A stretch of 64,000 bases of DNA from Candidatus Magasanikiibacteriota bacterium (GTDB lineage: Bacteria; Patescibacteriota; Patescibacteriia; Magasanikbacterales; UBA922). Within the stretch, counting starts at the first letter, position 1; every line of letters starts with the position of its first letter. The DNA is taken from positions 492-64,491 of the forward strand of contig DOYU01000021.1 of the NCBI GenBank assembly GCA_003518365.1. Reading direction: 5' to 3'. Positions 7,364-46,894 of the stretch are shown here, piece by piece. The position numbers were made by a program, and so were the translations under genes. The notes under the pieces were generated by a model that did not search any database, had not been told where the DNA came from, and saw only the letters and a list, made by a program, of their open reading frames with translations.

Positions 7364-7376
7364 GCAAGGTGAGAGA

Positions 7377-8032: not shown

Positions 8033-8041
8033 GAATAGATG

Positions 8042-8230: not shown

Positions 8231-8284
8231 ATACTTCTTTACATAATCTATTTCTAGTTACCAGTTACTGGTTCCTAGTCCCCT

Positions 8285-8875
8285 ATGTTTATGCATTCTC
8301 AATACCTCATCCCAACCGTCATCGAAAAAACATCACACGGTGAACGTGCATACGATATTTACTCTCGCCTTTTGAAAGATCGCATTATTTTTCTTGGCAG
8401 CGCGATCGATGACGGCGTCGCAAATACCATCATCGCTCAGCTCCTCTTCCTGGCAAATCAAGACGCGGAAAAAGATATCAAACTCTATATCAACTCCCCT
8501 GGTGGATCCGTCACCGCAGGTATGGCCATCTACGACACCATGCAATTTGTAAAACCACATGTTTCGACGATTTGTATCGGCATGGCAGCAAGTATGGGAT
8601 CAGTCCTCCTCGCAGCAGGAGAAAAAGGAAAACGTTTTGTCCTCCCAAATAGTGAAGTGATGATTCATCAAGTCCTCGGTGGGACACAAGGGCAAGCAAG
8701 TGATATTCAGATTCATGCAGAACGCATTGTCAAAATGAAAAAACATCTGAATGAAATTCTTGCAAAACACTGTGGCCAAACATTTGAAAAAGTAGAAAAA
8801 GACGCAGACCGAGATTACTTCATGAGTGCGGAAGAAGCTGTGACATACGGACTTGTGGACAAAGTTATATCGTAG
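8285..8875 (+). CDS. clpP: ATP-dependent Clp protease proteolytic subunit
   Basis: Full-length ClpP signature: [19 protein letters not shown], catalytic Ser context GMAASMG, and MIHQ.LGG. Confidence 0.95.
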
Positions 8876-20856: not shown

Positions 20857-20954
20857 AGCGAGTATGAATAGTATATCACAAAAATTATTCTGCTCACATG
20901 GCGAGTCTTGATTTTTTCGTGTATATTGAGTATTATAGCGAAGCAAAAAAAGAT

Positions 20955-20983
20955 GGGCTTGTCCTGCCTTTCGCGAAAGGCGG
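20955..20983 (+). repeat. Left copy of the direct repeat flanking the GIY-YIG gene (contains hairpin CCTGCCTTTCGCGAAAGGCGG)
   Basis: GGGCTTGTCCTGCCTTTCGCGAAAGGCGG. The near-identical copy at 21322-21351 differs by a G/T substitution at the first base and one extra C. It is followed by a second hairpin, TCCCTCCCTTC-acg-GAAGGGAGGGA (20989-21014). Confidence 0.7.
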
Positions 20984-21047
20984 AGCGCGTCCCTCCCTTC
21001 ACGAAGGGAGGGATATATCGTATAGTGTGTATCAAACAGGAGGGGCT

Positions 21048-21296
21048 ATGTTCTATACCTACCTATTGCAAAGTACAAAGGACAACAATTTTTATATTGG
21101 ATCAACGACGGATTTAAAAAGAAGATTCACCGAACATAACGATGGGAAAGTTTCTTCAACAAAATTTCGTCGTCCAATGAAATTGGTATATTACGAAGCC
21201 TATCCAGAAGAACATCTGGCACGAGTACGCGAACAAAAATTAAAAGATTTTGGTTCAGCATACACAGCACTATTAAAAAGATTAGGGTATAAATAA
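21048..21296 (+). CDS. Small GIY-YIG nuclease family protein (UPF0213/YhbQ-like)
   Basis: MFYTYLLQSTKDNNFYIGSTTDLKRRFTEHN carries the GIY..YIG and R..H motifs. ATG 21048 is preceded by AGGAGGGG. Confidence 0.85.
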   Translation: MFYTYLLQSTKDNNFYIGSTTDLKRRFTEHNDGKVSSTKFRRPMKLVYYEAYPEEHLARVREQKLKDFGSAYTALLKRLGYK

Positions 21297-21321: not shown

Positions 21322-21351
21322 TGGCTTGTCCCTGCCTTTCGCGAAAGGCGG
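21322..21351 (+). repeat. Right copy of the direct repeat flanking the GIY-YIG gene
   Basis: TGGCTTGTCCCTGCCTTTCGCGAAAGGCGG. Confidence 0.7.
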
Positions 21352-21411: not shown

Positions 21412-21482
21412 GGGCGCATCGTATAGTGGTAGTACATTGGTCTCCAAAACCAATTGCGTGGGTTCGATTCCTACTGCGCCTG
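21412..21482 (+). tRNA. tRNA-Trp (anticodon CCA)
   Basis: Folded by hand into a cloverleaf: acceptor GGGCGCA/TGCGCCT, anticodon stem TTGGT/ACCAA, loop CTCCAAA, T-arm GTGGG-TTCGATT-CCTAC. CCA is not encoded. Confidence 0.9.
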
Positions 21483-21538
21483 CACTGGAAAACATACCAA
21501 AAATAAGGTATGTTTTTATAGATAATAGAATAAACGAT

Positions 21539-22176: not shown

Positions 22177-22827
22177 ATGTATAGAAAAGGAGAAGTCATA
22201 GGTGTCGGGAATGACAAACGCATATATGCTGACGCAATAACTCCTGAGACAAGAGTTATTGCTGAATTTCGCAAGGAACAAACACCTGAAGAAATAAAGA
22301 GTGTGTACTATCTTGGGAACATAGCTCATATATTATTCCCTCAAAATGTACCCAAAGTATATGAAGCAGGGATGCATCCACAAGAACATACGAAAGTAGA
22401 AAGAAAAAAGGTGGATGTCAATCATAAAAATACGGCTGATCTCATGGTGACATACGAAGATTATTTCATGGGAGATGGTGAAACGGGACCTTCTTCAGAA
22501 GAAGATAGTGAGATGGATGTAGATATAGAAAAAAAAGAAACCGATCCAAGAGTAAAACAACTTTTAACAAAAGCGTCTTCTGTCGGATTATATTTTGATA
22601 CAGGCGGACAAAATTTTTCTTTTGACGATTTGGGTACTGTCCAATATCTTGAAGTGAATCCAGCATTTCATATAGAAAAAAACCACGTCCGTTTGCACTT
22701 CAACGAAAGCAAATTAAGAGATGCCATACAAGCATTAGAAAATGAAAAAGAGAAAAAAAAGGCTACACTATATTTCGAACGATTGATGTCTTTGATCCAA
22801 GTAGCACAAAATAATCTTATACAATAG
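22177..22827 (+). CDS. Hypothetical protein; possible atypical kinase-like fold (YrbL-like); weak
   Basis: Glycine-rich loop-like VIGVGNDKRIY near the N-terminus and LYFDTGGQNFSF resembling a kinase catalytic loop, read by eye only. Very AT-rich. Confidence 0.45.
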   Translation: MYRKGEVIGVGNDKRIYADAITPETRVIAEFRKEQTPEEIKSVYYLGNIAHILFPQNVPKVYEAGMHPQEHTKVERKKVDVNHKNTADLMVTYEDYFMGDGETGPSSEEDSEMDVDIEKKETDPRVKQLLTKASSVGLYFDTGGQNFSFDDLGTVQYLEVNPAFHIEKNHVRLHFNESKLRDAIQALENEKEKKKATLYFERLMSLIQVAQNNLIQ

Positions 22828-22913
22828 TTCCAACTTCCTCCTTCCTCTACGATCCCCTGCACCTCCTGCAGTAGCTCCTGCCGGCAGGCAGGTTAGCGAA
22901 GGCACGGCACTTG

Positions 22914-22948
22914 AAAAACAGAGTGAAAAACACTCTGTTTTTCTTTTT
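22914..22948 (+). terminator. Intrinsic terminator
   Basis: AAACAGAGTG-aaaaa-CACTCTGTTT followed by a T-rich run. Confidence 0.65.
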
Positions 22949-23002
22949 GACATGAAGGGAAGAACGGAGTATTGTACAAGTAAACATATACATTATATTG
23001 GT

Positions 23003-23212
23003 ATGGCTCATCAAAAAAATACAATCGGAAAAAACATCAAACGATTACGGCAAGAACAAAAAATTTCCCAAGATCGTCTTTCAAAACTTGCGGATCTTTC
23101 TTTGAATACTATTGTTACCGTTGAAAGTGGCGCAAACGAAAATCCTACTATTGATACGCTCACAAGGATTGCGAAAGCGTTTCAAGTTGGCGTGGATGAC
23201 CTCATAACATAA
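23003..23212 (+). CDS. XRE-family helix-turn-helix transcriptional regulator (69 aa)
   Basis: IGKNIKRLRQEQKISQDRLSKLADLSLNTIVTVESG is a canonical HTH_3. Start set at ATG 23003. Confidence 0.85.
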   Translation: MAHQKNTIGKNIKRLRQEQKISQDRLSKLADLSLNTIVTVESGANENPTIDTLTRIAKAFQVGVDDLIT

Positions 23213-23220
23213 CACCCACT

Positions 23221-24198
23221 ATGTCTAAACAAACACCTACCAATAATCTCGCTATCTACCAAGCTAAAAACGGCGCGATTGAATTTCGCGGTGATTTTGA
23301 GCAAGAGACGGTTTGGGGAAATTTAAATCAAATTGCCGATCTTTTTGGTCGCGACAAGTCCGTTGTTTCCCGCCATATAAAAAACATCTATAAAACAGGC
23401 GAATTAAACGAAACGGCAACTGTTGCAAAAATTGCAACAGTTCAAAAGGAAGGAAGGAGAGAAGTGATGCGTGAAATTGAGTACTTCAACCTTGATGTTA
23501 TTTTGTCCGTTGGGTACAGAGTAGATTCCAAGCAAGCCACGCAATTCCGCAAATGGTCAACGCAAGCGCTCAAGGCACACCTTGTAGACGGGTATACCAT
23601 CAACAAAAAACGCATCGGTAATAACTACGAACACTTTTTGCGTGCAGTGGCAGAAACAAAAGCACTCCTCCCTGTGGGCAACAAGGTTTCTACCGAGGAT
23701 ATACTTGAACTCGTGAACGCATTTGCTGCTACGTGGTTTTCGCTCGATGCATATGACAAAGACGCATTTCCTCAAAAAACAGCCTCAAAAAAGTCAGTTT
23801 CAGTTGACACTGTAAAGCTACTCAATGCGATTGGTGAGTTGAAGCAAGAACTGATAACCAAAAAGCAAGCAACAAACCTATTTGCACAAGAAAGGAAGAC
23901 GGGAACAGTAGAAGGAATCGTCGGAAATGTATTTCAGTCTGCCTTTGGCAAAGATGTATATCCAAGTATAGAAGAAAAGGCCGCACACATCCTCTACTTC
24001 ATGGTAAAAAATCATCCATTCACCGATGGCAACAAGCGCAGCGGAGCCTTTGCATTTGTTTGGTTTCTACGAAAAGCTGGTTTACTCCGACCAAGTCTTA
24101 CTCCAGAAGCGTTGACTGCCATTACCCTCCTCATTGCAGAGAGTAATCCAAAAGATAAAGACAAAATGGTGGGACTAGTGGTGATGTTAATCAAATAA
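23221..24198 (+). CDS. RhuM-family N-terminal domain fused to a Fic/Doc domain
   Basis: N-terminus: QIADLFGRDKSVVSRHIKNI ... YFNLDVILSVGYRVDSKQATQFRKW, the RhuM family pattern. C-terminus: HPFTDGNKRSGAF, which matches the Doc-type core HxFx[DN][GA]NKR. Confidence 0.8.
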   Translation: MSKQTPTNNLAIYQAKNGAIEFRGDFEQETVWGNLNQIADLFGRDKSVVSRHIKNIYKTGELNETATVAKIATVQKEGRREVMREIEYFNLDVILSVGYRVDSKQATQFRKWSTQALKAHLVDGYTINKKRIGNNYEHFLRAVAETKALLPVGNKVSTEDILELVNAFAATWFSLDAYDKDAFPQKTASKKSVSVDTVKLLNAIGELKQELITKKQATNLFAQERKTGTVEGIVGNVFQSAFGKDVYPSIEEKAAHILYFMVKNHPFTDGNKRSGAFAFVWFLRKAGLLRPSLTPEALTAITLLIAESNPKDKDKMVGLVVMLIK

Positions 24199-24200: not shown

Positions 24201-25322
24201 ATGGCAAATAAAAACCTTACAAAAGCAAAAAAGGCAAAAAATGATGAATTTTATACTCAATTTTCAGATATTCAAAAAGAAGTTGAGTCTTATCTTGAGT
24301 ATAACCCAGATACTTTTAAAGATAAGATAATTTACAGTAATTGTGACGACCCGTTCGAAAGTAATTTCTTTCGCTATTTTGTATTAAATTTTGATCGTTT
24401 AGGACTAAAGAGACTTATTTCAACGAGCTACAAACCCTCACCTGTTGCCAATACGCAACTGGGATTATTTGGCGATGACAAAACACTTGAAAAAGTAAAA
24501 GGCCGTCCAAAAGTAACCGCTAACAAATTCATCATCAACGAAGTTGGCGATATCGACGGCGACGGCTCTTTTACGCTAGAAGATATTGCCCAACAGCTTC
24601 GAGCGAATAAAAATAACGAATGGACTCCGCTTGAGGGCGATGGTGATTTTAGAAGTGCCGAATGTGTCGAGTTGCTCAAACAATCTGACATCGTAGTTAC
24701 TAATCCTCCATTTAGTTTATTCCGTGAATATATTACGCAACTTTTCGAACACAAAAAGCAATTTCTAATTATTGGTAGCATGAACTCAATTACTTACAAA
24801 GAAATCTTTGTGTTGATTAAAAATAATAAATTGTGGTTAGGTAATGGGTTTAATGCTGGCAATGCATATTTTTCAACTCCCAATGCGCGAAAAGATTTTG
24901 CTTCTGGTGTGTATGATGAAAAAACTGGTCTTGTAAAATTTCGGAATTGTCATTGGTTTACTAATTTAGATCATGGTCGTCGTCATCAGCCTCTTAATCT
25001 GATGACAACAAATGAAAACCTAAGATTTAATAAAAAAATGCAAGGCAAAACTACTTATGATCGTTATGACAATTATGACGCTATTGATGTACCATTTACA
25101 AAAGCTATCCCTTCTGACTACGAAGGAGTAATGGGTGTTCCTATAAGCTTTCTCGATAAGTACAATCCTAATCAGTTTGAGATATTGGGCTCTGACACAG
25201 ACATAAAAGAAGGTAAACTTCCACTTTTAATAATAAGTAAATGGAATGGAAAGCTAGACAGAGGTTATATACATGGAAAGAGAATCTTCAGTAGAATGTT
25301 TATTAAGCACAAAAAGAAATAA
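24201..25322 (+). CDS. N6-adenine DNA methyltransferase, EcoRI-methylase family
   Basis: N-terminal [16 protein letters not shown]...[18 protein letters not shown] and catalytic motif [12 protein letters not shown]. It begins 2 nt after the previous stop codon. Confidence 0.8.
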
Positions 25323-25323
25323 T

Positions 25324-26487
25324 ATGAAAACAACCTTAAAAAATGATATCACCGTTAAAGAAGTTTGCGACGGCTTTGAATACAACGAATTTGAAGGAAA
25401 AGGTTTGTTTGGTCTCTCTGGCAAACTAACTATTCAGCCAGAGTATCAGCGTAATTATATTTATGCTGACGGCAAACGTGACGTTGCTGTAATTGACTCA
25501 ATTTTAAAGGGTTATCCTATCGGTTTGATCTATTTCAATCAGGCTGGTAAAGACGAGTTTGAAGTATTAGATGGTCAACAGCGCATCACGAGTATAGGTC
25601 GTTTTGTTACTGGCAAATTTGCTGTTAAAGATAAAAACGGTCACGAGCAATACTACAGCGGTATGTCTGAGAGTCAGCGTGAGCAAATTATGAAGACTAA
25701 GTTGTTGGTGTATGTGTGCGAAGGTGACGAGCCTGAGATCAAAGATTGGTTCAAGACTATTAACATTGCTGGAGTGCCATTAACTGAACAAGAGATTCTT
25801 AACGCGGTATATTCTGGGCCATTCGTTACTCGAGCTCGTGAAGAGTTTAGTAATAGTCAAAATACCAACATCCAGAAATGGAGTGCGTACATCGCAGGTG
25901 ATATCAAGCGTCAGGCATACTTGGAACGAGCTCTAGATTGGGTTTCTGATGGATCAATCGATAGTTATATGAGCAAACACCGCAATGACAAAAATATTAC
26001 TGAACTAAAAAAACATTTTGATACTATCATTGACTGGGTCTCAACTATCTTTACTGACGTTGAGAGCGATATGAAAGGCCTTGAGTGGAACAGGATTTAT
26101 GAGACATATCACAAGAAGAAATACAATCCGACTACCATCTCTGCTTCTGTTCAGAAGCTCTATGCTGATGGTTTCGTAAAAAGTCGCAAAGGCATTTTTG
26201 AATATGTTTTAGGCGGAGAAGTTGAAACTAAACTACTTGAAATACGAGTATTTGAGGACTCAACAAAACGTTCAGTTTACGAAGCTCAAACTGCTATTGC
26301 AAAGAAAAAAGGTGTTTCAAACTGTCCACATTGTGCTATTGGGCATGATGCCAATAAAGAAAAAATTTGGACTTTAAGCGATATGGATGCTGATCATGTG
26401 GCTGCTTGGAGTAAAGGTGGAAAAACGGAAGCAAAAAACTGTGAGATGTTGTGTAAAACGCATAATCGTGCCAAAGGTAATCGGTAA
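25324..26487 (+). CDS. DUF262 (ParB/GmrS-like NTPase) fused to an HNH endonuclease
   Basis: N-terminus: IQPEYQRNY ... [10 protein letters not shown], the DUF262 hallmark. C-terminus: CPHCAIG...[12 protein letters not shown]...[15 protein letters not shown], the HNH motif. Start set at ATG 25324, 1 nt after the methyltransferase stop codon. Confidence 0.8.
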
Positions 26488-26493: not shown

Positions 26494-27987
26494 ATGCACC
26501 TCACAAAAACCGACTATCTCGAATATACCTTTTGCAAAAAGAACCTTTGGCTCAAAAAACATAAGCCAGAGCTTTTTGAAGATGTAGAATTGTCGGAATT
26601 TGAAAAAAAAATTATTGAGGAAGGGAATTTGGCTGATGAGGCTGCAAGAAATTTATTTCCTGATGGAGAATTGATCGGTATCGTCGGAGTAAATGCTATA
26701 CCTGTTACAAAAAAGATACTGGAGAAAAACCCACCAGTATTATTTCAAGGTGCATTTTCATTCAATGACTTTTTTGTTCAAGCGGATATTTTACGTTACA
26801 ACGACATTTTAAAGGGTTGGGAACTTTACGAAGTAAAAGCAACAAATGATGTAAAACGAGAAATCCCTCATCACCATATCAACGACCTTGCGTTTCAAAA
26901 AATTGTAATTGAACAAAATGGGATACACATTATAAAAGCAGGCGTTATTCACCTTAACGGCGAATATAGACAACGAGGCAAAGTAAACTATAACGAACTG
27001 TTCATCATTGCCGAGCTTACTGATGAAGTACTAGAAGCGGAAGAACTTGTACGTGGGCAGATGCGTGATATTCACACATATATGGACATGGCAGAAGAAA
27101 AAAATTGTGAATGTTTGTATCGAGGTAGAAATGCACAATGTACAACGTTCGCTTACTCTAATCCTGAAGTGCCTGAATACTCTGTTCACGATATCAATAG
27201 AATTGGCGGAAGCAAAAAACTGTTTTTTGACTGGATAGATAGAGGGATCTACCGGCTCGAAGATATAGATAACCCAGAAAATCTTACAGGATCAAAAAAG
27301 GCACAATATACTGCGTACATAACAGGTAAGCCTCTCATAGACAAAGAAGCAATACAAAAAGAACTTGGTGAATTGGTTTTTCCTCTCCAATTTTTTGATT
27401 ACGAAGGATATTCTAGTGCTATCCCCAGCTTTAACGGCTTCGGTGCGTATGAACAAGTGCCTTTTCAATATTCACTACATACGCTCCATGAAGACGGAAC
27501 GCTTGAACACCGAGAATATCTCATCACAGAGCCAGAGAATGATTTGACTTTGCCATTGGTAGAAAGAATGAAAGAAGACTTTGATGATGTTGGTACTGTC
27601 ATATCTTGGTACAAATCATACGAATCACAACGAAACGACAAACTAGCAGAACTTCATCCAAATCATGCAGACTTTCTTATTGGCCTCAATGACAGAATGT
27701 TTGACCTCATGACAATGTTTTCCAAAAATTATTATGTGGATGCACGGTTCAAAGGGAGTGCAAGCATAAAAAATGTTCTGCCGGTCATTGTACCGGAATT
27801 AACGTACAAAGTACTTGGTATTCAAAAAGGAGATCAAGCAGTAGAACGTTGGGAAAAAATGATATTTGCAGATATTCATCCAGATGAAAAGAAAGAAATA
27901 AAAAAAGATTTGCTTGAGTATTGCAAATTGGATACTTTGGCGATGGTGAGGATTTGGGAGTTTCTAATGAAAATAAAAAATGTATGA
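26494..27987 (+). CDS. DUF2779 family protein (N-terminal PD-(D/E)xK/Cas4-like nuclease, C-terminal DUF2779)
   Basis: MHLTKTDYLEYTFCKKNLWLKKHKPE...FPDG, ELYEVKA (ExK), and FFDYEGYSSAIPSFNGFGAYEQVPFQYSLH, the DUF2779 hallmark. Confidence 0.75.
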   Translation: MHLTKTDYLEYTFCKKNLWLKKHKPELFEDVELSEFEKKIIEEGNLADEAARNLFPDGELIGIVGVNAIPVTKKILEKNPPVLFQGAFSFNDFFVQADILRYNDILKGWELYEVKATNDVKREIPHHHINDLAFQKIVIEQNGIHIIKAGVIHLNGEYRQRGKVNYNELFIIAELTDEVLEAEELVRGQMRDIHTYMDMAEEKNCECLYRGRNAQCTTFAYSNPEVPEYSVHDINRIGGSKKLFFDWIDRGIYRLEDIDNPENLTGSKKAQYTAYITGKPLIDKEAIQKELGELVFPLQFFDYEGYSSAIPSFNGFGAYEQVPFQYSLHTLHEDGTLEHREYLITEPENDLTLPLVERMKEDFDDVGTVISWYKSYESQRNDKLAELHPNHADFLIGLNDRMFDLMTMFSKNYYVDARFKGSASIKNVLPVIVPELTYKVLGIQKGDQAVERWEKMIFADIHPDEKKEIKKDLLEYCKLDTLAMVRIWEFLMKIKNV

Positions 27988-29219
27988 ATATGCACAGCCC
28001 TCTTTCTTCAATTCAACAACTACAATCAATATTAAGTAGTCCTTCGAAAAAAATCGGATTCCTTTTTGGGGCTGGAATTTCAATGGAAAAAAAAGATAAG
28101 AGTGATTTGGTGGTAGGAACTGATGACAAAAAAGATGAGAACGGTAATGTAATAAAAGAAGGAATGACAAGTCTCGCAATTAAAAATTTATCAGAGGAAC
28201 AAAAAAAAGCTGTAGATTTAATAAAGAATGAGGTTGAAACAGAAAATAAAAAATTTAACATCGAAAGTCTCTTATCAAAAATTTCTGAAAAAGAAAGAGC
28301 TGTTGGCGATCAAGAGCTTTGTGGTTTAACAAAAGAAAAATTATTAAATTTGAGAAAGGATATACAGGATAAAATAAGAGATTTGGTTTCCGTACATAGG
28401 GTGGATGATAAAGAAATTGATATTGAGGCATTAAATCACAGCACATTTGCTCAATGGATTAGTAATGCTGATAGAGAATTCTCAGTAGAAATTTTTACAA
28501 CAAATTACGATTATCTACTAGAACTAGCACTTGAAAAACAAGGAATTCCCTATTTCGATGGTTTTGTGGGTAGTTATGAAGCATTTTTTTGCCCTGAATG
28601 GATTGAAGATGACACGCCTGTCAAAAATTGGGTAAAGCTATGGAAATTACATGGTTCACTTGGTTGGGCACAGAATAGTAAAAAAGAAATAATTAGAACA
28701 TCTGGTAATACCGGTGCGGCGATGATATACCCTTCATTTTTGAAATATGACCATTCCAAAAAACAGCCATACTTGAGCTATATGGATAGATTGTCCGATT
28801 TTTTAAAGCAAGAAGATTCTGTCTTATTTGTTTGTGGTTATTCATTTGGAGATGAACATATAAATGAAATAATTTTGACAGCACTTACGCACTCTCGCTC
28901 ATCACATGTATTTGTGTTGAAAAATGGAGAAATGGAAAAATCTAGCCATCTTTCAAAAGAAATTGCACAAAAAAATTCTAGAATTTCAGTTTATGCAAAA
29001 CGTACCTGTATTATTGGAGGTAAATTTGGAGAATGGAAGCTCGATAGAGAACCAGACAGAAATGAATCCTACAACATATTAGATTATGCTTTTGATGAAG
29101 ACGCTACACCTGATGGAGTACCATGGACAGGAAGAGGTGATTTTCGTCTTGGAGACTTTAAAAAATTTACGGAGTTTTTAGAGCTTTTCTACCATAATTC
29201 GAGATATATCAATAAATGA
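27984..29219 (+). CDS. SIR2-like (SIR2_2) NAD-binding defence protein
   Basis: IGFLFGAGIS, FTTNYDYLLE, KLHGS and CGYSFGDEHIN. The start ATG 27984 overlaps the DUF2779 stop codon (ATGA). Confidence 0.8.
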   Translation: MNMHSPLSSIQQLQSILSSPSKKIGFLFGAGISMEKKDKSDLVVGTDDKKDENGNVIKEGMTSLAIKNLSEEQKKAVDLIKNEVETENKKFNIESLLSKISEKERAVGDQELCGLTKEKLLNLRKDIQDKIRDLVSVHRVDDKEIDIEALNHSTFAQWISNADREFSVEIFTTNYDYLLELALEKQGIPYFDGFVGSYEAFFCPEWIEDDTPVKNWVKLWKLHGSLGWAQNSKKEIIRTSGNTGAAMIYPSFLKYDHSKKQPYLSYMDRLSDFLKQEDSVLFVCGYSFGDEHINEIILTALTHSRSSHVFVLKNGEMEKSSHLSKEIAQKNSRISVYAKRTCIIGGKFGEWKLDREPDRNESYNILDYAFDEDATPDGVPWTGRGDFRLGDFKKFTEFLELFYHNSRYINK

Positions 29220-29220
29220 C

Positions 29221-30999
29221 ATGAGAAATAAAGAGACATTTATAGGTAAAGTGAGAAGTGTCACAGGTAGTACGCTTGCTATTGAGTTACACGAAGATAT
29301 TAGATCAACGTTACCTATTATTGATGGGATATTATATAGAATTGGACAAATTGGTTCTTTTATAAGAATTCCTTTTGGTTATGTTGATTTATATGGAGTA
29401 ATTACACAAGCTGGATCAGACGCTATACCAGAAAAATTAGCGGAGCAAGAGGGTTTGAAAGGATCTCGCTGGATTAAGGCTACTCTTATTGGAGAAAGGG
29501 TCGGTAATAGATTTGAAAGAGGGGTGTTGCAATTTCCTATTGCTGATGACGAAGTTCATTTGGTCACGAAGGATGATTTGGAATTGATATATGGTGGAAT
29601 TGATGAATCAAAGTCAATAGTAGTTGGACAGGTCAGTGCCTCTGAAAATCTGTCAGCAAGAATAGATATAGACAGATTAATTAATAGACATTGCGCCATA
29701 CTTGGCTCTACAGGAAGTGGAAAATCAAATACAGTTTCTGTAATACTAGAAGCAATTGCTTCTAGACATCATGATGATGAAAATATAAAAAGTACGAGAA
29801 TTCTTTTGGTCGACCCTCATGGTGAGTATGGCGATATTTTAAAAAATTATAGTCAAATATTTAAGTTAGGAGCAGACTTGTCAAAAGGAGAAAAAGAACT
29901 AGTTGTTCCATATTGGGCTTTACCTTTTCAAGAATTTATAAAAAGTTTTCCAGGTAATCTAACTGAAAAGCAGGAAGAGTACATACGTGAAGAAATTCTA
30001 CAAAGAAAGATTAAGGCTTCTAAAAAATTAAATCCTATTCCACAAGAGGAGGCAATTACAGCTGATAGCCCTATCCCTTTCAGTATTAAACAACTATGGT
30101 TTGACCTTATTGATATAGAGCAAAAAACTTTTAATAACAAGGAGTTAACCGAAGTCGCACTCGAATCACTAGGCGATCCTGAGGCACTTAAGCCTAACAA
30201 ATACTCCATAGCGTCAACAAATAATACAGCCCCTTTCAGTAATAACAGGGTTGCGCAGGGTATTTCAAGTTTTTTAAACTTAATGCGGAATAGAATTTTA
30301 GATCAAAGATTTAAGTTTTTATTCAAACTAGACACGCTCTCTCCTGGTATTGACGGAACTATTTCAAGTGATTTAGACAGTCTCATTGAAAGTTGGATTG
30401 GGACAGAGAAACCAATAACTATTTTAGACCTATCGAGTATACCCTCTGAAATCATGGGTTCAATTTCTGGTTCTTTGCTTTCAATAATTTATGAATTTCT
30501 ATATTGGGGACAGAATGAAGATGTGGGAGGTCGCCAAACACCTATTCTGTTTGTACTAGAAGAGGCACATAATTATCTAAAGTCAGGCGAGAATTCTATT
30601 GCCTCAAGAACTGTACAAAAAATTGCAAAAGAGGGTAGAAAATATGGTTCAGGTTTACTACTCGTAACCCAACGACCTTCTGAACTGGATGATACTGTTT
30701 TGAGTCAATGTGGTTCAGTTATCGCGTTGAGAATGACAAATTCTAGCGATAGAGGCCACGTAAAGAGTGCTGTCGAGGATTCCCTAAACGAGTTAGTTGA
30801 TTTGCTTCCGAGCCTAAGAACAGGTGAAGGTTTAATTATGGGTGAATGTGTAAAATTACCTATGCGAACTAAATTTTCTAAAACTAGGGAATCTAAAAGT
30901 ACAGACCCACTTGTTTCTAAGCAGTGGAAAACAACTCTTCCAGAATCCTCTAACTATAATAAAGTTTTAGAAAATTGGAGAAATAATAAATTTTCTTAA
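29221..30999 (+). CDS. HerA-like (DUF87) FtsK/HerA-clade ATPase
   Basis: Walker A ILGSTGSGKSNT, Walker B ILFVLEEAHNYL, GRKYGSGLLLVTQRPSEL. It begins 1 nt after the SIR2 stop codon. Confidence 0.85.
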   Translation: MRNKETFIGKVRSVTGSTLAIELHEDIRSTLPIIDGILYRIGQIGSFIRIPFGYVDLYGVITQAGSDAIPEKLAEQEGLKGSRWIKATLIGERVGNRFERGVLQFPIADDEVHLVTKDDLELIYGGIDESKSIVVGQVSASENLSARIDIDRLINRHCAILGSTGSGKSNTVSVILEAIASRHHDDENIKSTRILLVDPHGEYGDILKNYSQIFKLGADLSKGEKELVVPYWALPFQEFIKSFPGNLTEKQEEYIREEILQRKIKASKKLNPIPQEEAITADSPIPFSIKQLWFDLIDIEQKTFNNKELTEVALESLGDPEALKPNKYSIASTNNTAPFSNNRVAQGISSFLNLMRNRILDQRFKFLFKLDTLSPGIDGTISSDLDSLIESWIGTEKPITILDLSSIPSEIMGSISGSLLSIIYEFLYWGQNEDVGGRQTPILFVLEEAHNYLKSGENSIASRTVQKIAKEGRKYGSGLLLVTQRPSELDDTVLSQCGSVIALRMTNSSDRGHVKSAVEDSLNELVDLLPSLRTGEGLIMGECVKLPMRTKFSKTRESKSTDPLVSKQWKTTLPESSNYNKVLENWRNNKFS

Positions 31000-31010
31000 T
31001 TATTAAACAT

Positions 31011-31223
31011 ATGGAAAGAAAACCAGTACAATCATCAAATCTTGCTGCTATTGGATATGATCCTTTGACAGAAACTTTGGAGGTGGAATTCACAGATGGG
31101 TCTGTCTATGAGTATAAGAACGTCTCTCAATTTATATACGATGAGCTGATGAATGCTTCGTCTCATGGTTCTTATTTTAATAGAGAAATCAGTAAAAGTT
31201 TTCCGTATGAGAAAATAGGTTAA
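31011..31223 (+). CDS. KTSC domain protein (70 aa)
   Basis: VQSSNLAAIGYDPLTETLEVEFTDGSVYEYKNV matches the KTSC pattern (SSN...GYD...L.V.F..G..Y.Y..V). Confidence 0.75.
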   Translation: MERKPVQSSNLAAIGYDPLTETLEVEFTDGSVYEYKNVSQFIYDELMNASSHGSYFNREISKSFPYEKIG

Positions 31224-42471: not shown

Positions 42472-43065
42472 ATGAACAAACATATTCTCGTTTCATTGTC
42501 TTTTTTATCAGTAGCTCTGGTAATTTCTGGTTGTGGAAATAACACAACTACACCCAATGCTTCTGATACAGGTACAGAGCCAGGTCAAGAACGATTTGGG
42601 AATAATCCAAATGCTCCACAAACTCAGGCTGATATTGTGGGTATTGTGAAATCTATGGTTGGGAATGAAGTGACCATTACTCAAATCGATATGGACAAAA
42701 TGCGTGAGGCAATGGCTGCCAGTAGGCCAGATAGCCAACCTGCAACGGGTGAGGAAGGAAGGAGTAATAATTTTGTCGCAGGAACAGGACCAGGTATGGG
42801 ACCGGGGGGCGGTATGGGTCCTGGTGGTGGTATGGGACCAGATGGTGCCAATATTGATAGTGAAGAAAGAAATCAAGCACTCTCTGACATGATGAAAGAA
42901 TATAGTGCAGGAGACGTAAAAGTAATACTTCCTGTAGGGATTGCGATGAACCGTCGTGGGGAAACAGCAAGTTTAGCTGATGTTGCTGTTGGTGCCAATC
43001 TTTCTATTTGGTTAAATACGTCAGTCAGTGACAAAAAAGTAGCTGAGTATGTAAGTATTAGATAA
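42472..43065 (+). CDS. Lipoprotein with a Gly/Pro/Met repeat (GPGMGPGGGMGPGGGMGP); first gene of a MacAB-like operon
   Basis: Signal peptide and lipobox LVISGC. Confidence 0.65.
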   Translation: MNKHILVSLSFLSVALVISGCGNNTTTPNASDTGTEPGQERFGNNPNAPQTQADIVGIVKSMVGNEVTITQIDMDKMREAMAASRPDSQPATGEEGRSNNFVAGTGPGMGPGGGMGPGGGMGPDGANIDSEERNQALSDMMKEYSAGDVKVILPVGIAMNRRGETASLADVAVGANLSIWLNTSVSDKKVAEYVSIR

Positions 43066-43066
43066 T

Positions 43067-44905
43067 ATGTCTCAAGAAGAATCAATCATTGCTCAAAGCA
43101 AAAAATTTCGTCGTGGAGGATACATACCAAAACTTTTGAAAAATAAAAAAGTACTGATGATAGTGCTTGTTTTGGTAATGACTCTTTCAGGCGGATATTA
43201 TGTGTATTCAAAAATCGCAAAGAACAATGATACCGCTGTTGCTACGAAAAAAACATATACCGTAAAAAAAGGTGATATTCGTATTTCTACCAATGCTGAC
43301 GGCAGTATTGTTGCCAAAGATGGTGTGAGTTTGTCTTTTTCGAGTACAGGTGTCACGATAAAAAATGTATATGTAAAAGAAGGCGATATCGTCAAAAAAG
43401 GTGACAACATTGCAACAGCCGATACAGGTACCCAAAGCATTGATTTGCAATCAGCGTATGCTTCGTATACGTCTGCGAAAGCAAGTTATGAAGAAAAAAT
43501 TGCAGGACCTACAGAAAATGATTTGGCTTCCTACAAAAATTCTGTTGAAAGTGCTCAAGCAAGTCTTGATAAGACGTTGAAACAAAATGAATATGCAATA
43601 CAGAGTGCGGAAAGTTCTCTAGAAACAGCTCTTGCTAATTTGAAATTGTCAGAAGGTGGTGAACAGAGTCAGATAGTACAAGATGCGTACAACGATATAT
43701 ATCTGGATTCACTCAGTGCGGTGACGAATCTGAATGCAGCGCTTACTGCCTCAGATAATATTCTTGGTATTGACAACATATTTGCCAATGATGTTTTTGA
43801 AAATGTATTATCAGTCTTAGATAGTGCGAGCATTTCTCAGGCAAGAAATTCTTATCTTGTTGCAAAACATACGTTGACAACTGCAGAAAATGCCGTTGTG
43901 GTATTGAATGCTTCTTCTCCTCAAGGAGATATGTTGGCGAGTGCCCAATTAGTTCTAGTAGCTATTACCCAAATGCATCAGCATTATTATGATATGCAAG
44001 AAATGCTTGTAGCAACGCTACCCATTGGTGATCTGTCACAAAGCTCCTTAGAGAGTATGCGAAGCAGTGTGAATAGCAAAAAATCATCCATGGTTTCTTT
44101 GCTCAGTTCTTTCAATGCTTCTCTGAAAGCCATAGATACAGCAACATCAAGTTATGATTCATATAAAAGAGCATATGAAAATGCTCTCCAAGCATTGGAA
44201 AAAGCAAAGAGTGATGCTGAGTCTTCTGAAATAAGTGCCAGATTGAGTCTACAAAATGCAGAACAACAGTTGAAAGAGGCATCGGCTCCTTTGACAGAGT
44301 CTGAGCGTAGTTCCGCCAAGAGTAGTCTTGCAAATGCAAGTGCAAGTGTACAAAAACTTCAATATCAAATAGATCAATCTACGCTCAAATCCCCGATTGA
44401 TGGTGAAGTGGTATTGTTGAATGGGAAAACAGGAGACATCATCGTGGATGAAAAAAATTCTCCTTTTGTAACAATTTTGAATAAAGAAACATTTTTTGTT
44501 GAGACAAATATAGAGGAATCTGAAATAAGTAACATCCAAGTTGGTCAAAAAGCTCACATCATTGTTGATGCACTCGATGAAGCAACGCTTGAGGGTACGG
44601 TCAATTTTATTTCCCTTACTTCTGAAAGTGGTACTGGTGGTGTTGTGACGTACCTTGTGCGTGTGTTGCTAGATGATACAGAGTATGTTGATGTGAGAGA
44701 AGGAATGACGGCAGGTGTGGACTTCGTGATTGCGGAATCAAATGATGTCCTGATGGTGCCAGTGCAAGCAGTACAAAATGTAAATGGCAAACCTGCAGTA
44801 ACCATGAACAATGGAGATACCAGAGACGTTGTCACTGGTTTTACAGATGGACAAACAGTGGAGATTATTTCTGGATTAGAAGTTGGAGAACAAGTAACCT
44901 ATTAA
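43067..44905 (+). CDS. Periplasmic adaptor (HlyD/MacA-type membrane fusion protein) with a very long coiled coil
   Basis: N-terminal TM segment, lipoyl-like VKEGDIVKKGDNIA, about 300 aa of coiled coil, and a C-terminal beta-barrel (SPIDGEVVLLNGKTGD). Confidence 0.75.
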   Translation: MSQEESIIAQSKKFRRGGYIPKLLKNKKVLMIVLVLVMTLSGGYYVYSKIAKNNDTAVATKKTYTVKKGDIRISTNADGSIVAKDGVSLSFSSTGVTIKNVYVKEGDIVKKGDNIATADTGTQSIDLQSAYASYTSAKASYEEKIAGPTENDLASYKNSVESAQASLDKTLKQNEYAIQSAESSLETALANLKLSEGGEQSQIVQDAYNDIYLDSLSAVTNLNAALTASDNILGIDNIFANDVFENVLSVLDSASISQARNSYLVAKHTLTTAENAVVVLNASSPQGDMLASAQLVLVAITQMHQHYYDMQEMLVATLPIGDLSQSSLESMRSSVNSKKSSMVSLLSSFNASLKAIDTATSSYDSYKRAYENALQALEKAKSDAESSEISARLSLQNAEQQLKEASAPLTESERSSAKSSLANASASVQKLQYQIDQSTLKSPIDGEVVLLNGKTGDIIVDEKNSPFVTILNKETFFVETNIEESEISNIQVGQKAHIIVDALDEATLEGTVNFISLTSESGTGGVVTYLVRVLLDDTEYVDVREGMTAGVDFVIAESNDVLMVPVQAVQNVNGKPAVTMNNGDTRDVVTGFTDGQTVEIISGLEVGEQVTY

Positions 44906-44916
44906 GACTGAATGGT

Positions 44917-45627
44917 ATGAGTGAAGAAGTTGTCATACAATTGAAAGATGTCCACAAATCTTATTATTTAGGCAATGGCGAAGAAGTACAGGTCTTAAAA
45001 GGGGTTGATGTAGAAATAAAAAAGGGAGAATTTGTCGCACTCATGGGAGAGTCTGGTGGTGGAAAAACCACGTTACTCAATATTCTAGGATGCCTCCATC
45101 CCCTCTCTTCTGGTACATATTTACTCGAAGGAGAAAATATTGGAGATGTCCGTGATGATGGAACGCTCGCGTTTATCCGTAACAAAAAAATGGGCTTTGT
45201 GTTTCAACAATTCAATTTGTTGTCACGTCTCAGTGCTCTCAAAAATGTGGCATTGCCAAGTCTGTATGCAGGAGTCGACAAAGAAACGAGAAACACAAAA
45301 GCAAAAGAACTGTTAAAACTTTTATCAATGGAAGAAAGAACAGAACACAAACCAACAGAGCTTTCGGGTGGTCAACAACAACGTGTCGCCATAGCACGCG
45401 CGCTGATGAACGACCCTGAAATAATTTTGGCAGATGAACCGACAGGTGCTCTTGATTCAAAAAATGGTTTGGAGATTATGGAAATTTTCAAAAATTTCAA
45501 AAACCAACAAAAGACGGTCGTGATGGTAACGCATACCGCAGAAGTTGCAAAATACGCTGACAGAATTATCTATATGCGTGATGGTAAAATTTTGGATACT
45601 CATTATCAGTTGAAGAGTGAGTACTAA
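44917..45627 (+). CDS. ABC transporter ATP-binding protein (MacB/LolD type)
   Basis: [35 protein letters not shown]. Confidence 0.9.
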   Translation: MSEEVVIQLKDVHKSYYLGNGEEVQVLKGVDVEIKKGEFVALMGESGGGKTTLLNILGCLHPLSSGTYLLEGENIGDVRDDGTLAFIRNKKMGFVFQQFNLLSRLSALKNVALPSLYAGVDKETRNTKAKELLKLLSMEERTEHKPTELSGGQQQRVAIARALMNDPEIILADEPTGALDSKNGLEIMEIFKNFKNQQKTVVMVTHTAEVAKYADRIIYMRDGKILDTHYQLKSEY

Positions 45628-45685
45628 TTTTTTGTGAATATACTAGGTAAAAAATTAGAGTTTACGAGGATCATTTGTTGAACGT

Positions 45686-46894
45686 ATGTTTTTAGAAATA
45701 TTAAAAATGGCAGGTGAAGCACTTTGGTCCAATAAGATCCGAAGTTTTTTGTCAGTGCTTGGTATTATTATTGGGGTGTCTACGGTTATCGTAGTAGTAG
45801 GCATTGGGACTGGAGCAAAAAAACAAATAGAAGAACAATACAAAAATCTGAGTGCGACGACCATCATGGTCATGAAACAGATGGGACGAGATGCTGTTTC
45901 TTCTTCAAAACTGGAAGCAGAAGATGCCACTGTTATTTCTCAAAATATTGAACATATAAAGAGTACCACCGTTTTTATTTCGGGCAACTCAACGGTTGCG
46001 TATGGACAAGAATCTGGTTCAGTAAATACATTTGGTATCTATGATACTTTTTTTGATATAGGTAATTTAGAGCTAGAAGCTGGGAGACTTCTCACTCAAG
46101 AAGATGTGAGTAATAAATCAAAAGTCATTGTCATTGGTTCAGGTGCGTTGACGACACTTTTTGGTGAGGAGGCTGAGACTACTCAAGCGGTCGGTCAATT
46201 TATTACTGTTTCTAATAAAAAAATGGAAATAGTCGGCATCCTCAAAGAAAATGGAGGAAGTGTGATGGGGAGAATGTCTTATGATGATGCGGTGTTTGTC
46301 CCATATACGACGGCTGAAAGTATGTTGGGAAATCAAGCCAACATGATGATTGTGGTACTTATGGATGATGTGGACAATTTGCAAACAGGCATGGATGATA
46401 TTACCACTATCTTGCGAATTCAGCATAAACTCAAAGCAAGTCAGGCTGATGATTTTCGTATTTTTGATCCTGGTTCTATTGTCGGCGCTGCCCAAAGTTC
46501 TGCAGATACCATGTCATTACTGTTGGTATCGATCGCAACGATTGTGCTTATTGTATCTGGCGTCGGTATTATGAATGTCATGTTTGTGACGGTGGCAGAA
46601 AGAACAAAAGAAATTGGTATTGCAAAAGCAATTGGGGCACAAAAACAAGATATCTTGACTCAATTTTTGGCTGAATCAGTGATTTTATCAATTGGGGGAG
46701 GAATGGTAGGAGCATTACTTGGTCAAATCATCATTCCCATTTTGAATACATTTGAAGGTTGGTATGTTGTTCCATCTGTTTCTGGAGTGATATTGTCTTT
46801 TACGTTCTCAGCTATTGTAGGTTTATTTTTTGGATTTTATCCAGCACTCAAAGCAAGCAAACTCGATCCTGTAGATGCGTTGAGGAGTGAATAG
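45686..46894 (+). CDS. ABC transporter permease (MacB periplasmic domain plus FtsX 4-TM)
   Basis: LWSNKIRSFLSVLGIIIGV, a large periplasmic domain, and the C-terminal FtsX motif PALKASKLDPVDALRSE. Confidence 0.88.
   Translation: MFLEILKMAGEALWSNKIRSFLSVLGIIIGVSTVIVVVGIGTGAKKQIEEQYKNLSATTIMVMKQMGRDAVSSSKLEAEDATVISQNIEHIKSTTVFISGNSTVAYGQESGSVNTFGIYDTFFDIGNLELEAGRLLTQEDVSNKSKVIVIGSGALTTLFGEEAETTQAVGQFITVSNKKMEIVGILKENGGSVMGRMSYDDAVFVPYTTAESMLGNQANMMIVVLMDDVDNLQTGMDDITTILRIQHKLKASQADDFRIFDPGSIVGAAQSSADTMSLLLVSIATIVLIVSGVGIMNVMFVTVAERTKEIGIAKAIGAQKQDILTQFLAESVILSIGGGMVGALLGQIIIPILNTFEGWYVVPSVSGVILSFTFSAIVGLFFGFYPALKASKLDPVDALRSE

What the first reader, a model, noticed from the sequence alone, without database searches (positions are those of the whole stretch)
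26494..31223. SIR2-HerA pair extended by an overlapping upstream DUF2779/PD-(D/E)xK nuclease and a trailing KTSC gene: a possible 3-4 gene variant
SIR2 plus HerA is an established two-gene anti-phage module that acts through NAD+ depletion, with a HerA hexamer scaffolding the effector. Here the SIR2 start codon overlaps the stop codon of a 497-aa DUF2779 protein (ATGA at 27984-27987). That protein carries a Cas4/RecB-like ExK nuclease motif, so translational coupling is implied. HerA is followed 11 nt later by a 70-aa KTSC domain gene. HerA is also known to pair with nuclease effectors in sister systems. A locus combining a nuclease and an NADase with one HerA would therefore be a hybrid architecture.
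Basis: partly seen in the sequence, partly recalled or inferred. Interest (0 to 1): 0.75.

Follow-up and report, generated by a model that had tools for sequence, protein, structure and literature searches.

The report
SIR2-HerA-KTSC defence operon with exonuclease neighbour
This groundwater bacterium carries a known NAD-depleting anti-phage system (SIR2-HerA) whose small trailing KTSC gene is a detached piece of HerA and a true third component, while the double exonuclease gene in front of it is an optional add-on seen in about one in seven related loci.

Summary

KTSC is a real component. A 67-73 aa KTSC gene follows HerA in 79 of 80 related loci from many phyla. It is homologous to the ordered C-terminal domain of the solved Paenibacillus sp. 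453MF HerA. The module is therefore the Paenibacillus-type SIR2-HerA in its usual split form, not an extension of it.

DUF2779 is a Cas4/MGME1-like PD-(D/E)xK nuclease fused to a DEDDy 3'-5' exonuclease, with both active sites intact. It is not a core component:
- 68 of 80 loci have no such nuclease within 7 kb.
- Two of the four closest HerA relatives examined lack it.
- Its own closest relatives mostly follow restriction-modification operons.

It is still a recurrent companion:
- 12 of 80 loci carry a double exonuclease of this kind, from two Pfam families with no detectable sequence similarity between them. Seven abut the operon directly.
- In one Desulfobacterota-type DUF2779 clade the four genes stay together while the flanking genes change.
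- DUF2779 also occurs fused to PIN_8-KTSC and to Shedu nucleases.

Best reading: a three-gene core plus an optional DNA-end-processing accessory. Cooperation between them is inferred, not shown. The ATGA overlap proves little, because every junction in this eight-gene array is equally tight.

The parts
27984..29219 (+). SIR2 NADase effector (411 aa from the ATG at 27984; alternative ATG at 27990)
   Evidence: Pfam SIR2_2 8.5e-22 and PADLOC SIR2 PDLC04093 6.5e-108. The best solved relative is Paenibacillus sp. 453MF SIR2, 8w9l_A, at 9e-55. Catalytic N174, D176 and H223 align with its N163, D165 and H212 (residues named in PMC11472057).
29221..30999 (+). HerA hexameric ATPase/translocase (592 aa)
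   Evidence: Pfam DUF87 1e-36 and HerA_C, and PADLOC HerA PDLC04105 2.1e-150. It aligns to residues 9-604 of 8wiv_A, the Paenibacillus HerA, at 2.3e-141. Walker A (G162-S169) and Walker B (E447, E448) are invariant in 26 homologues.
31011..31223 (+). KTSC protein (70 aa): the detached C-terminal domain of HerA and third core component
   Evidence: Pfam KTSC 1e-25. It aligns to residues 629-695 of 8wiv_A (1.5e-12). An AF2 model (pLDDT 80.6) superposes on modelled residues of the 8WLD and 8WIV HerA chains, with TM about 0.8 and 40-41% identity. A KTSC gene follows HerA in 79 of 80 related loci, with a median gap of 11 nt.
26494..27987 (+). DUF2779 double exonuclease (497 aa): N-terminal Cas4/MGME1-like PD-(D/E)xK domain with four cysteines, and C-terminal DEDDy 3'-5' exonuclease. 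An optional neighbour or accessory, not a core component.
24201..25322 (+). Context: EcoRI-family adenine methyltransferase, upstream R-M module
   Evidence: Pfam EcoRI_methylase 3.1e-127 and PADLOC MTase_II 2.8e-106.
25273..26487 (+). Context: GmrSD_N (DUF262)-HNH restriction endonuclease. Its stop lies 6 nt before the DUF2779 start.
   Evidence: Pfam GmrSD_N 1.3e-22 and HNH, and PADLOC REase_II PDLC03418 1.7e-88. The same pairing with a double exonuclease and SIR2-HerA-KTSC is seen in L161 and L163.
22952..24198 (+). Context: HTH protein (22952-23212) and RhuM/Fic protein (23221-24198), the first genes of the tightly packed array
   Evidence: Pfam HTH_3. RhuM plus Fic, and PADLOC PDC-S23 6.6e-112. 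A terminator-like hairpin at 22913-22943 lies just upstream.
21412..21483 (+). Context: tRNA-Trp at the left edge of the low-GC island (about 21.0-32.0 kb; 32-42% GC against 42-49% in the flanking 10 kb)
   Evidence: ARAGORN and Rfam; composition profile.

Best explanation
Core. The locus encodes a Paenibacillus-type SIR2-HerA abortive-infection system in its usual three-gene form: SIR2 (NADase), HerA (hexameric ATPase) and a separate 70-aa KTSC protein. KTSC corresponds to the ordered C-terminal domain of the solved, fused Paenibacillus HerA. By homology, HerA and SIR2 assemble into a large complex, KTSC docks on the outside of the HerA ring, and infection unleashes NAD+ hydrolysis that stops the infected cell.

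Accessory. The DUF2779 gene in front encodes a Cas4-like plus DEDDy double exonuclease. It is not part of the core. It is an optional, modular companion gene found next to, or fused with, several DNA-end-responsive defence effectors (SIR2-HerA-KTSC, Shedu, PIN_8-KTSC), and it is often found at the end of restriction-modification operons.

Inferred step, not shown. DUF2779 trims or binds the ends of linear phage DNA, including ends made by the upstream restriction enzyme. This would feed the end-bearing DNA intermediates that are known, in another Sir2-HerA subtype, to switch on the HerA ATPase and license the NADase.
For: Core identity
- PADLOC SIR2 6.5e-108 and HerA 2.1e-150.
- The closest solved structures are the Paenibacillus sp. 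453MF pair.
- SIR2 N174, D176 and H223 are conserved. The HerA Walker motifs are invariant.

KTSC
- It follows HerA in 78 of 80 GTDB loci read with the standard code, and in L013 once UGA is read as sense.
- The one exception, L081, has a transposase directly after HerA.
- Median gap 11 nt; length 67-73 aa; a conserved SSN..GYD..Y.Y motif.
- It aligns to 8wiv_A residues 629-695 and superposes on modelled HerA residues in 8WLD and 8WIV.
- Only 1 of 150 HerA representatives has KTSC fused.
- The three genes move as one cassette, for example inside type I R-M operons.

DUF2779 biochemistry
- Two intact nuclease domains, in agreement with PMC13621843 and PMC3985635.

DUF2779 recurrence near SIR2-HerA-KTSC
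- DUF2779 lies within 7 kb in 9 of 80 loci.
- A PDDEXK_1+RNase_H_2 protein of the same architecture, with no phmmer hit to DUF2779, is present in 3 more (L085, L077, L075) and in L163.
- Seven of the 12 abut the operon and point the same way.
- In the L011-type DUF2779 clade (Desulfobulbaceae/Desulfobacterota-type records; 31% identical to the window's protein), DUF2779-SIR2-HerA-KTSC stays together in L011, L012, L170 and L176 while both flanks change.

Fusions
- P0267 is DUF2779+PIN_8+KTSC, and P0246 is DUF2779+PIN_8.
- P0262 and P0282 are DUF2779+HNH_2+SduA_C.
- The 91%-identical DUF2779 in L092 is followed 1 nt later by a Shedu gene.

Mechanistic background
- DNA ends activate the type III Sir2-HerA ATPase and relieve ATP inhibition of the NADase (PMC13434337).
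- Shedu N-terminal domains sense free DNA ends (bioRxiv 10.1101/2023.08.10.552762).
Against: - 68 of 80 related loci have no double exonuclease within 7 kb.
- HerA relatives L165 (78% identical) and L167 (80%) lack one.
- In PMC11472057 the Paenibacillus system is described as a two-gene system, and anti-phage activity depended on the SIR2-HerA contacts. No DUF2779 partner is mentioned.
- Among the DUF2779 homologues 61-94% identical to the window's, 38 distinct loci have a readable downstream neighbour. Only L091, which is the window's own population, has SIR2 there.
- The gene before DUF2779 in those loci points the same way in most cases. In roughly 40% it is a restriction or other defence gene.
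- Known separate systems abut the cassette just as tightly. In L031 hsdS overlaps SIR2 by 4 nt.
- About a third of loci have some close, co-directional neighbour on each side.
- No physical or functional interaction could be tested here.
Confidence: 0.5

Rival explanations
1. DUF2779 is an autonomous gene, either a stand-alone defence nuclease or a repair nuclease. It simply lives in defence islands. Its position next to SIR2 here results from island packing and block transfer, with no functional tie to SIR2-HerA-KTSC. The core three-gene reading is unchanged.
For: - Neighbours vary: 91%-identical DUF2779 copies sit before SIR2 (window, L161) or before Shedu (L092).
- Close homologues follow type I, II, IIG, III and IV restriction genes, RhuM and others.
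- L171 has DUF2779 alone among housekeeping genes.
- In Campylobacterota loci, one or two variable genes separate KTSC from DUF2779.
- Type I R-M genes abut the cassette as often and as tightly as DUF2779 does.
- A Mycoplasma member of the family is quasi-essential, which suggests a housekeeping role is possible (PMC13621843).
Against: - Two families with no detectable sequence similarity but the same architecture occupy the same slot.
- The four genes stay together with changing flanks in the L011-type clade.
- In-frame fusions to KTSC-bearing and Shedu effectors show that DUF2779 can work in cis with defence effectors.
- Counting both double-exonuclease families (12 loci), this is the most frequent non-core neighbour kind in the 80 loci. 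DUF2779 alone ties with hsdM in the clustering, at 8 loci each.
Confidence: 0.33
2. DUF2779 belongs functionally to the upstream restriction-modification module (EcoRI-type methylase plus DUF262-HNH endonuclease). It would act as a post-cleavage degrading exonuclease, a stand-in for RecBCD/AddAB in a reduced genome. SIR2-HerA-KTSC would be a separate system inserted downstream.
For: - The gap from the restriction gene to DUF2779 is 6 nt.
- The order DUF262-family nuclease, then double exonuclease, recurs in L161 and L163. In L013 the order is reversed.
- In the window's DUF2779 clade the upstream gene is mostly co-directional and close, and is often a restriction subunit: ResIII in 6, plus HsdR, GmrSD, MmeI/Eco57I and methylases.
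- The downstream gene in that clade is mostly housekeeping.
- L176 has hsdMSR directly upstream.
Against: - L170, L012 and L172-175 have no R-M upstream of DUF2779.
- No single R-M type is preferred.
- L037 has the same methylase and DUF262-HNH pair near SIR2-HerA-KTSC without any DUF2779.
- This reading is not exclusive of the accessory model, since DNA ends made by restriction could feed both.
Confidence: 0.12
3. One reading: DUF2779 is a second effector scaffolded by the same HerA hexamer, as DUF4297 is in HerA-DUF4297 systems. This would give a combined nuclease and NADase machine.
For: - HerA is known to pair with nuclease effectors (DUF4297, PMC12198126). PMC9503650 mentions HerA plus KTSC plus an endoDNase in place of the sirtuin, as an unpublished observation.
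- The stop/start overlap with SIR2.
Against: - DUF2779 has no DUF4297 or Cap4-like domain. It is a Cas4-like plus DEDDy exonuclease.
- It occurs upstream of, downstream of, or several genes away from the operon.
- It occurs with effectors that have no HerA at all: the PIN_8-KTSC fusion and Shedu.
- Most SIR2-HerA-KTSC loci lack it.
Confidence: 0.05

Closest known systems
Paenibacillus sp. 453MF SIR2-HerA (PDB 8WIV, 8WLD, 8W9L; PMC11472057)
   Same: It is the closest solved relative of both proteins: HerA 2.3e-141 over residues 3-590, and SIR2 9e-55 with N, D and H conserved. The KTSC fold is part of that complex.
   Different: There KTSC is fused to HerA, inside what the authors call the C-terminal arm domain (aa 576-696). 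Here, and in 79 of 80 relatives, it is a separate 70-aa protein. Only 1 of 150 HerA representatives is fused. The paper does not name the domain KTSC and treats the system as two genes.
E. coli Sir2-HerA/Nezha (8J4U) and E. coli types I-III (PMC13434337)
   Same: The same two-protein logic: a SIR2 NADase with a HerA ATPase, acting by abortive infection. In type III, DNA ends activate the ATPase, which gates the NADase.
   Different: Only distant similarity: HerA 1e-30 and SIR2 3.4e-17 to 8J4U. The KTSC query matched no other solved HerA chain, and the paper's text has no hit for 'third gene', 'three-gene', 'accessory' or 'additional gene'.
HerA-DUF4297 nuclease systems (PMC12198126)
   Same: A HerA hexamer partnered with a nuclease.
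   Different: In those systems the nuclease replaces SIR2 and binds HerA. DUF2779 is from an unrelated fold family, sits beside an intact SIR2, and is optional.
Shedu (SduA) with N-terminal sensor domains (bioRxiv 10.1101/2023.08.10.552762 and 10.1101/2023.08.10.552793)
   Same: DUF2779 occupies the N-terminal position of Shedu in the fusion proteins P0262 and P0282, and precedes a Shedu gene in L092 and L172-175. Shedu N-terminal domains sense DNA ends.
   Different: The window has no Shedu gene. A search of the Gu et al. main text found no mention of DUF2779, Cas4 or exonuclease. Its supplements were not checked.
DUF2779/PF11074 family, including MMSYN1_0389 of JCVI-syn3.0 (PMC13621843; PMC3985635)
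   Same: The same two-domain architecture of a Cas4-like nuclease plus an RNase H-like 3'-5' exonuclease, with conserved D, E and K.
   Different: The Mycoplasma protein keeps only two of the four cysteines and is quasi-essential. The window protein keeps all four and sits in a mobile low-GC defence island.

Membership tests
SIR2-HerA anti-phage system (Paenibacillus type) | SIR2_2-family protein with the catalytic Asn, Asp and His | tested here: met
   Pfam SIR2_2 8.5e-22 and PADLOC SIR2 6.5e-108. N174, D176 and H223 align to N163, D165 and H212 of 8w9l_A.
SIR2-HerA anti-phage system (Paenibacillus type) | HerA-type ASCE ATPase with Walker A and Walker B motifs | tested here: met
   Pfam DUF87 and HerA_C, and PADLOC HerA 2.1e-150. 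G162-S169 and E447/E448 are invariant. 8wiv_A 2.3e-141.
SIR2-HerA anti-phage system (Paenibacillus type) | SIR2 and HerA genes adjacent and co-directional, with that order conserved in relatives | tested here: met
   The gap here is 1 nt. A SIR2 hit lies directly upstream of HerA in 77 of the 80 loci. In L033, L059 and L084 the contig starts too close to HerA to show it.
SIR2-HerA anti-phage system (Paenibacillus type) | C-terminal KTSC ('arm') domain associated with HerA | tested here: met
   It is present as a separate gene. It aligns to 8wiv_A 629-695, matches structurally, and is conserved in 79 of 80 loci.
SIR2-HerA anti-phage system (Paenibacillus type) | SIR2-HerA supramolecular complex, infection-triggered NAD+ depletion and phage protection | not testable with these tools
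   This needs expression, phage challenge and NAD+ measurement. It is inferred from homology to PMC11472057 and 10.1101/2021.12.14.472415.
DUF2779 (PF11074) double exonuclease | PF11074 domain above the gathering score | tested here: met
   119.9 bits against a cut-off of 23.3.
DUF2779 (PF11074) double exonuclease | N-terminal Cas4-like PD-(D/E)xK fold with D...ExK and a Cys cluster | tested here: met
DUF2779 (PF11074) double exonuclease | C-terminal DEDD 3'-5' exonuclease fold with its acidic residues | tested here: met
HerA-nuclease systems (DUF4297-HerA) | DUF4297/Cap4-like nuclease partner of HerA | tested here: not met
   None of the four proteins has a DUF4297 hit in Pfam or PADLOC. SIR2 occupies the effector position.
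Proposed four-gene DUF2779-SIR2-HerA-KTSC variant | DUF2779 co-occurs with the operon across relatives | tested here: inconclusive
   12 of 80 loci have a double exonuclease and 7 of those abut the operon. It is kept with changing flanks in L011, L012, L170 and L176. It is absent in 68 of 80 loci and in L165 and L167. The reverse survey gave 1 of 38.
Proposed four-gene DUF2779-SIR2-HerA-KTSC variant | Physical or functional interaction of DUF2779 with SIR2, HerA or KTSC | not testable with these tools
   No multimer prediction or experiment was available. The only indirect evidence is the DUF2779+PIN_8+KTSC fusion.

The most novel reading that the evidence does not exclude
Cas4-like plus DEDD double exonucleases (DUF2779/PF11074 and the PDDEXK_1+RNase_H_2 type) would form an unrecognised, interchangeable 'DNA-end module'. 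This module would plug into several unrelated defence effectors, by gene adjacency or by fusion: SIR2-HerA-KTSC, Shedu, PIN_8-KTSC and restriction enzymes. It would sense or generate the DNA ends that license those effectors. KTSC would be the shared adaptor that links such modules to the effector.
Probability: 0.25. Interest if true: 0.75.

Novelty: new variant of a known kind. Interest (0 to 1): 0.5.

Why it matters
SIR2-HerA is catalogued and studied as a two-gene system. This survey shows that, in the clade holding the structurally solved Paenibacillus prototype, the normal form is three genes and KTSC is a separate small protein. Constructs or annotation rules that take only SIR2 and HerA from such loci would drop a conserved component.

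The recurrent double exonuclease gives a concrete, testable lead on an open question: what feeds the DNA-end signal recently shown to gate the Sir2-HerA NADase. It also links that question to Shedu, another DNA-end sensor. If the exonuclease proves to be independent, it is still a useful marker of defence islands in Patescibacteria.

Tried and rejected
- Overlap as evidence of coupling: rejected. All junctions in the eight-gene array are tight, hsdS overlaps SIR2 by 4 nt in L031, and about a third of loci have a close co-directional neighbour on each side.
- Adjacency statistics: 7 of 12 abutting gives binomial p of about 1e-3. I give this little weight, because type I R-M genes abut the cassette just as often.
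- GC and GC3 per gene do not cleanly assign DUF2779 to the R-M block or to the SIR2 block: GC3 is 0.32 for DUF2779, 0.28-0.34 for the R-M genes and 0.23-0.28 for SIR2, HerA and KTSC.
- Promoter and terminator scan: promoter-like sites are at chance level. No strong internal terminator lies between 23.3 and 31.2 kb.
- No att-like direct repeat marks the island edges.
- PHROGs: no phage family matches DUF2779.
- PDB sequence search for DUF2779 found nothing, so a fold search was needed.
- Literature: 'DUF2779' occurs in only 7 papers, none on SIR2-HerA. 'KTSC' with 'HerA' gives only a passing remark in PMC9503650. 7X8C has no paper in the library.
- L013 and L081 looked like KTSC-less exceptions. 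They are explained by UGA recoding and by a transposase insertion.
- The second low-GC stretch in the window (42.4-47 kb) is an ordinary MacAB-like transporter.


Full report
**Source and setting**

The window matches Candidatus Magasanikbacteria GW2011_GWD2 (Patescibacteria, Rifle groundwater; GCA_000998635.1 contig LCDM01000008.1). The finding lies in a low-GC island (about 21.0-32.0 kb; 32-42% GC against 42-49% in the flanking 10 kb) that begins at a tRNA-Trp gene (21412-21483).

After a terminator-like hairpin at 22913-22943, eight + strand genes follow. Every called junction is 11 nt or less, or an overlap:

| Gene | Coordinates |
|---|---|
| HTH | 22952-23212 |
| RhuM/Fic | 23221-24198 |
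| EcoRI-type methylase | 24201-25322 |
| GmrSD_N-HNH endonuclease (PADLOC type II REase, 1.7e-88) | 25273-26487 |
| DUF2779 | 26494-27987 |
| SIR2 | 27984-29219 |
| HerA | 29221-30999 |
| KTSC | 31011-31223 |

A glycosyl hydrolase family 3 (GH3) gene follows after 178 nt.

**Observation**

This includes the ATGA at 27984-27987, the 11-nt HerA-KTSC gap and the D98...E113-x-K115 motif.

**The core system**

- PADLOC scores are SIR2 6.5e-108 and HerA 2.1e-150.
- The closest solved structures are the Paenibacillus sp. 453MF pair: HerA 8wiv_A at 2.3e-141 and SIR2 8w9l_A at 9e-55. E. coli Nezha (8J4U) is far more distant.
- SIR2 N174, D176 and H223 match the catalytic N163, D165 and H212 named in PMC11472057.
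- The HerA Walker A and B motifs are invariant in 26 homologues.

**KTSC**

I scanned one genome per GTDB species with a HerA alignment and kept 80 loci. HerA identity was 43-74%. The loci come from many bacterial phyla and one archaeon.

- SIR2 directly precedes HerA in 77 of the 80 loci. In the other three (L033, L059, L084) the contig starts too close to HerA to show it.
- A KTSC ORF follows HerA in 78 loci.
- L013 only looked degraded. Its HerA has 28 in-frame TGA codons and no other stops. With UGA read as sense, SIR2, HerA and KTSC are all intact.
- L081 has an IS5-like transposase directly after HerA.
- The total is therefore 79 of 80. The median gap is 11 nt, the length is 67-73 aa, and the motif SSN..GYD..Y.Y is conserved.

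The window's KTSC aligns to residues 629-695 of the 696-aa Paenibacillus HerA. Its AF2 model (pLDDT 80.6) superposes on modelled residues of HerA chains in 8WIV and in the 8WLD SIR2/HerA complex, with TM about 0.8 and 40-41% identity. It also matches the stand-alone KTSC crystal structures 7X8C and 4RGI.

PMC11472057 calls residues 576-696 a 'C-terminal arm domain' that stabilises the split-spiral hexamer. It does not use the name KTSC.

Only 1 of 150 HerA cluster representatives carries a fused KTSC. The split form is therefore the rule and the solved fusion is the exception.

The three genes also move as a unit. They are inserted between type I R-M genes in several loci, in the order hsdM, hsdS, cassette, hsdR where all are visible.

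The only prior mention I found of a HerA-KTSC link is a passing remark on unpublished observations in PMC9503650.

**What DUF2779 is**

- The AF2 model has pLDDT 81.7.
- D98, E113, K115, the four cysteines, and D302, E304, D404, Y476 and D480 (a DEDDy signature) are invariant.
- This agrees with PMC3985635 and PMC13621843.

**Evidence that DUF2779 is not a core component**

- 68 of the 80 loci have no double exonuclease within 7 kb.
- Of the four closest HerA relatives examined, L165 (78% identical) and L167 (80%) lack one.
- The reverse survey covered 70 metagenome loci encoding DUF2779 proteins 61-94% identical to the window's. Among 38 distinct loci with a readable downstream neighbour, SIR2 is downstream only in L091, which is the window's own population.
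- In that clade the upstream gene is mostly co-directional and close. In roughly 40% of loci it is a restriction or other defence gene: ResIII in 6, plus HsdR, GmrSD, MmeI/Eco57I, methylases, RhuM and PADLOC candidate system PDC-S18.
- The downstream gene in that clade is mostly housekeeping.
- DUF2779 copies 91% identical to the window's precede SIR2 in L161 but Shedu in L092.

**Evidence that DUF2779 is more than a chance neighbour**

- DUF2779 lies within 7 kb in 9 of the 80 loci:
  - directly upstream in L011 and L012;
  - upstream with one GmrSD gene between in L013;
  - directly downstream of KTSC in L064 and L080;
  - one or two genes downstream in four Campylobacterota loci.
- A different family with the same architecture (PDDEXK_1+RNase_H_2) gives no phmmer hit to DUF2779. 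It sits directly upstream of SIR2 in L163, L085 (4-nt overlap) and L077, and just after KTSC in L075.
- Double exonucleases are therefore present in 12 of 80 loci. This makes them the most frequent non-core neighbour kind, ahead of hsdM at 8.
- In the L011-type DUF2779 clade (Desulfobulbaceae/Desulfobacterota-type records; 31% identical to the window's protein), the four genes stay together in L011, L012, L170 (4-nt overlap) and L176 while both flanks change.
- In the same clade the slot after DUF2779 can hold Shedu (L172-175) or be fused to it. P0267 is one 828-aa protein made of DUF2779, PIN_8 and KTSC. P0246 is DUF2779+PIN_8. P0262 and P0282 are DUF2779+HNH_2+SduA_C.

**Weighing the evidence**

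Tight adjacency and 4-nt overlaps are weak evidence. The whole array is tightly packed, and type I R-M genes abut and even overlap the cassette in the same way.

The stronger arguments are the convergence of two families with no detectable sequence similarity on the same slot, the four-gene unit that survives flank changes, and the fusions.

I therefore rate an optional accessory role at about 0.5, pure co-residence at about 0.33, an R-M accessory role at about 0.12 (not exclusive of the first), and a HerA-scaffolded second effector at about 0.05.

**Proposed mechanism**

Shown by homology: HerA and SIR2 form the NADase complex, with KTSC as the HerA-associated domain.

Inferred: DUF2779 processes or binds DNA ends. 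All its recurrent partners respond to or create DNA ends:
- DNA ends activate the type III Sir2-HerA ATPase and relieve ATP inhibition of the NADase (PMC13434337).
- Shedu N-terminal domains clamp free DNA ends (10.1101/2023.08.10.552762).
- Restriction enzymes make ends.

**Novelty**

The core is a known kind of system. The split KTSC gene as a conserved third component, and the optional double exonuclease, make this a new variant of a known kind.

Noticed in passing
L031, L032, L035, L041, L049, L056, L062 (HerA at about 7001-8800 in most): The SIR2-HerA-KTSC cassette sits among type I restriction-modification genes. The order is hsdM, hsdS, cassette, hsdR in L031 and L032, with partial versions in the others. 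In L031 hsdS overlaps the SIR2 start by 4 nt.
   Followed up: partly
L016:3744-4772, and homologues in L022, L023, L025, L034, L048, L072: A protein of about 342 aa with no Pfam, PHROG or PDB sequence match clusters in these 7 loci. It starts -1 to +6 nt after KTSC in L016, L023, L025, L034 and L048, mostly Bacteroidota. It may be another optional fourth gene.
   Followed up: partly
L169:1350-3836 (protein P0267); also P0246, P0262, P0282: Single polypeptides fuse DUF2779 to PIN_8 and KTSC, or to HNH_2 and the Shedu nuclease domain. In L169 the fusion occupies the place that SIR2-HerA-KTSC holds in L011 and L170.
   Followed up: partly
L011:9158-12851, L012:6408-8414, L169:3890-7594, L170:10791-13482, L172:9330-13034: A Metallophos protein (about 414 aa) and an SMC-like ATPase (about 815 aa), resembling SbcCD, follow the variable effector slot in loci of the L011-type DUF2779 clade. 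Whether they form a system with DUF2779 was not examined.
   Followed up: no
L013 (CAZUBA010000001.1, labelled Candidatus Peribacteria): HerA contains 28 in-frame TGA codons and no TAA or TAG, so this genome reads UGA as a sense codon (code 25 or 4). The locus has DUF2779, GmrSD, SIR2, HerA and KTSC in that order.
   Followed up: yes
window 20963-20983 and 21331-21351: An exact 21-nt palindromic repeat, CCTGCCTTTCGCGAAAGGCGG, lies inside the 5' part of the GIY-YIG ORF (20898-21296) and again just after it, next to tRNA-Trp. A 71% copy is at 20991.
   Followed up: no
window 22177-22827: A 216-aa ORF between tRNA-Trp and the defence array has no significant Pfam hit (one weak Tudor_5 hit below the cut-off) and no PADLOC or PHROG match. 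It is conserved in all sampled copies of this contig that reach that far upstream.
   Followed up: no
window 42472-46894: A second low-GC stretch encodes an HlyD-like, ABC ATPase and FtsX/MacB-like transporter. It is ordinary and unrelated to the finding.
   Followed up: yes
L037:312-2503 (- strand): The same EcoRI-type methylase and DUF262-HNH endonuclease pair as in the window lies 3 kb upstream of SIR2-HerA-KTSC in Pedobacter xixiisoli, with no DUF2779.
   Followed up: no
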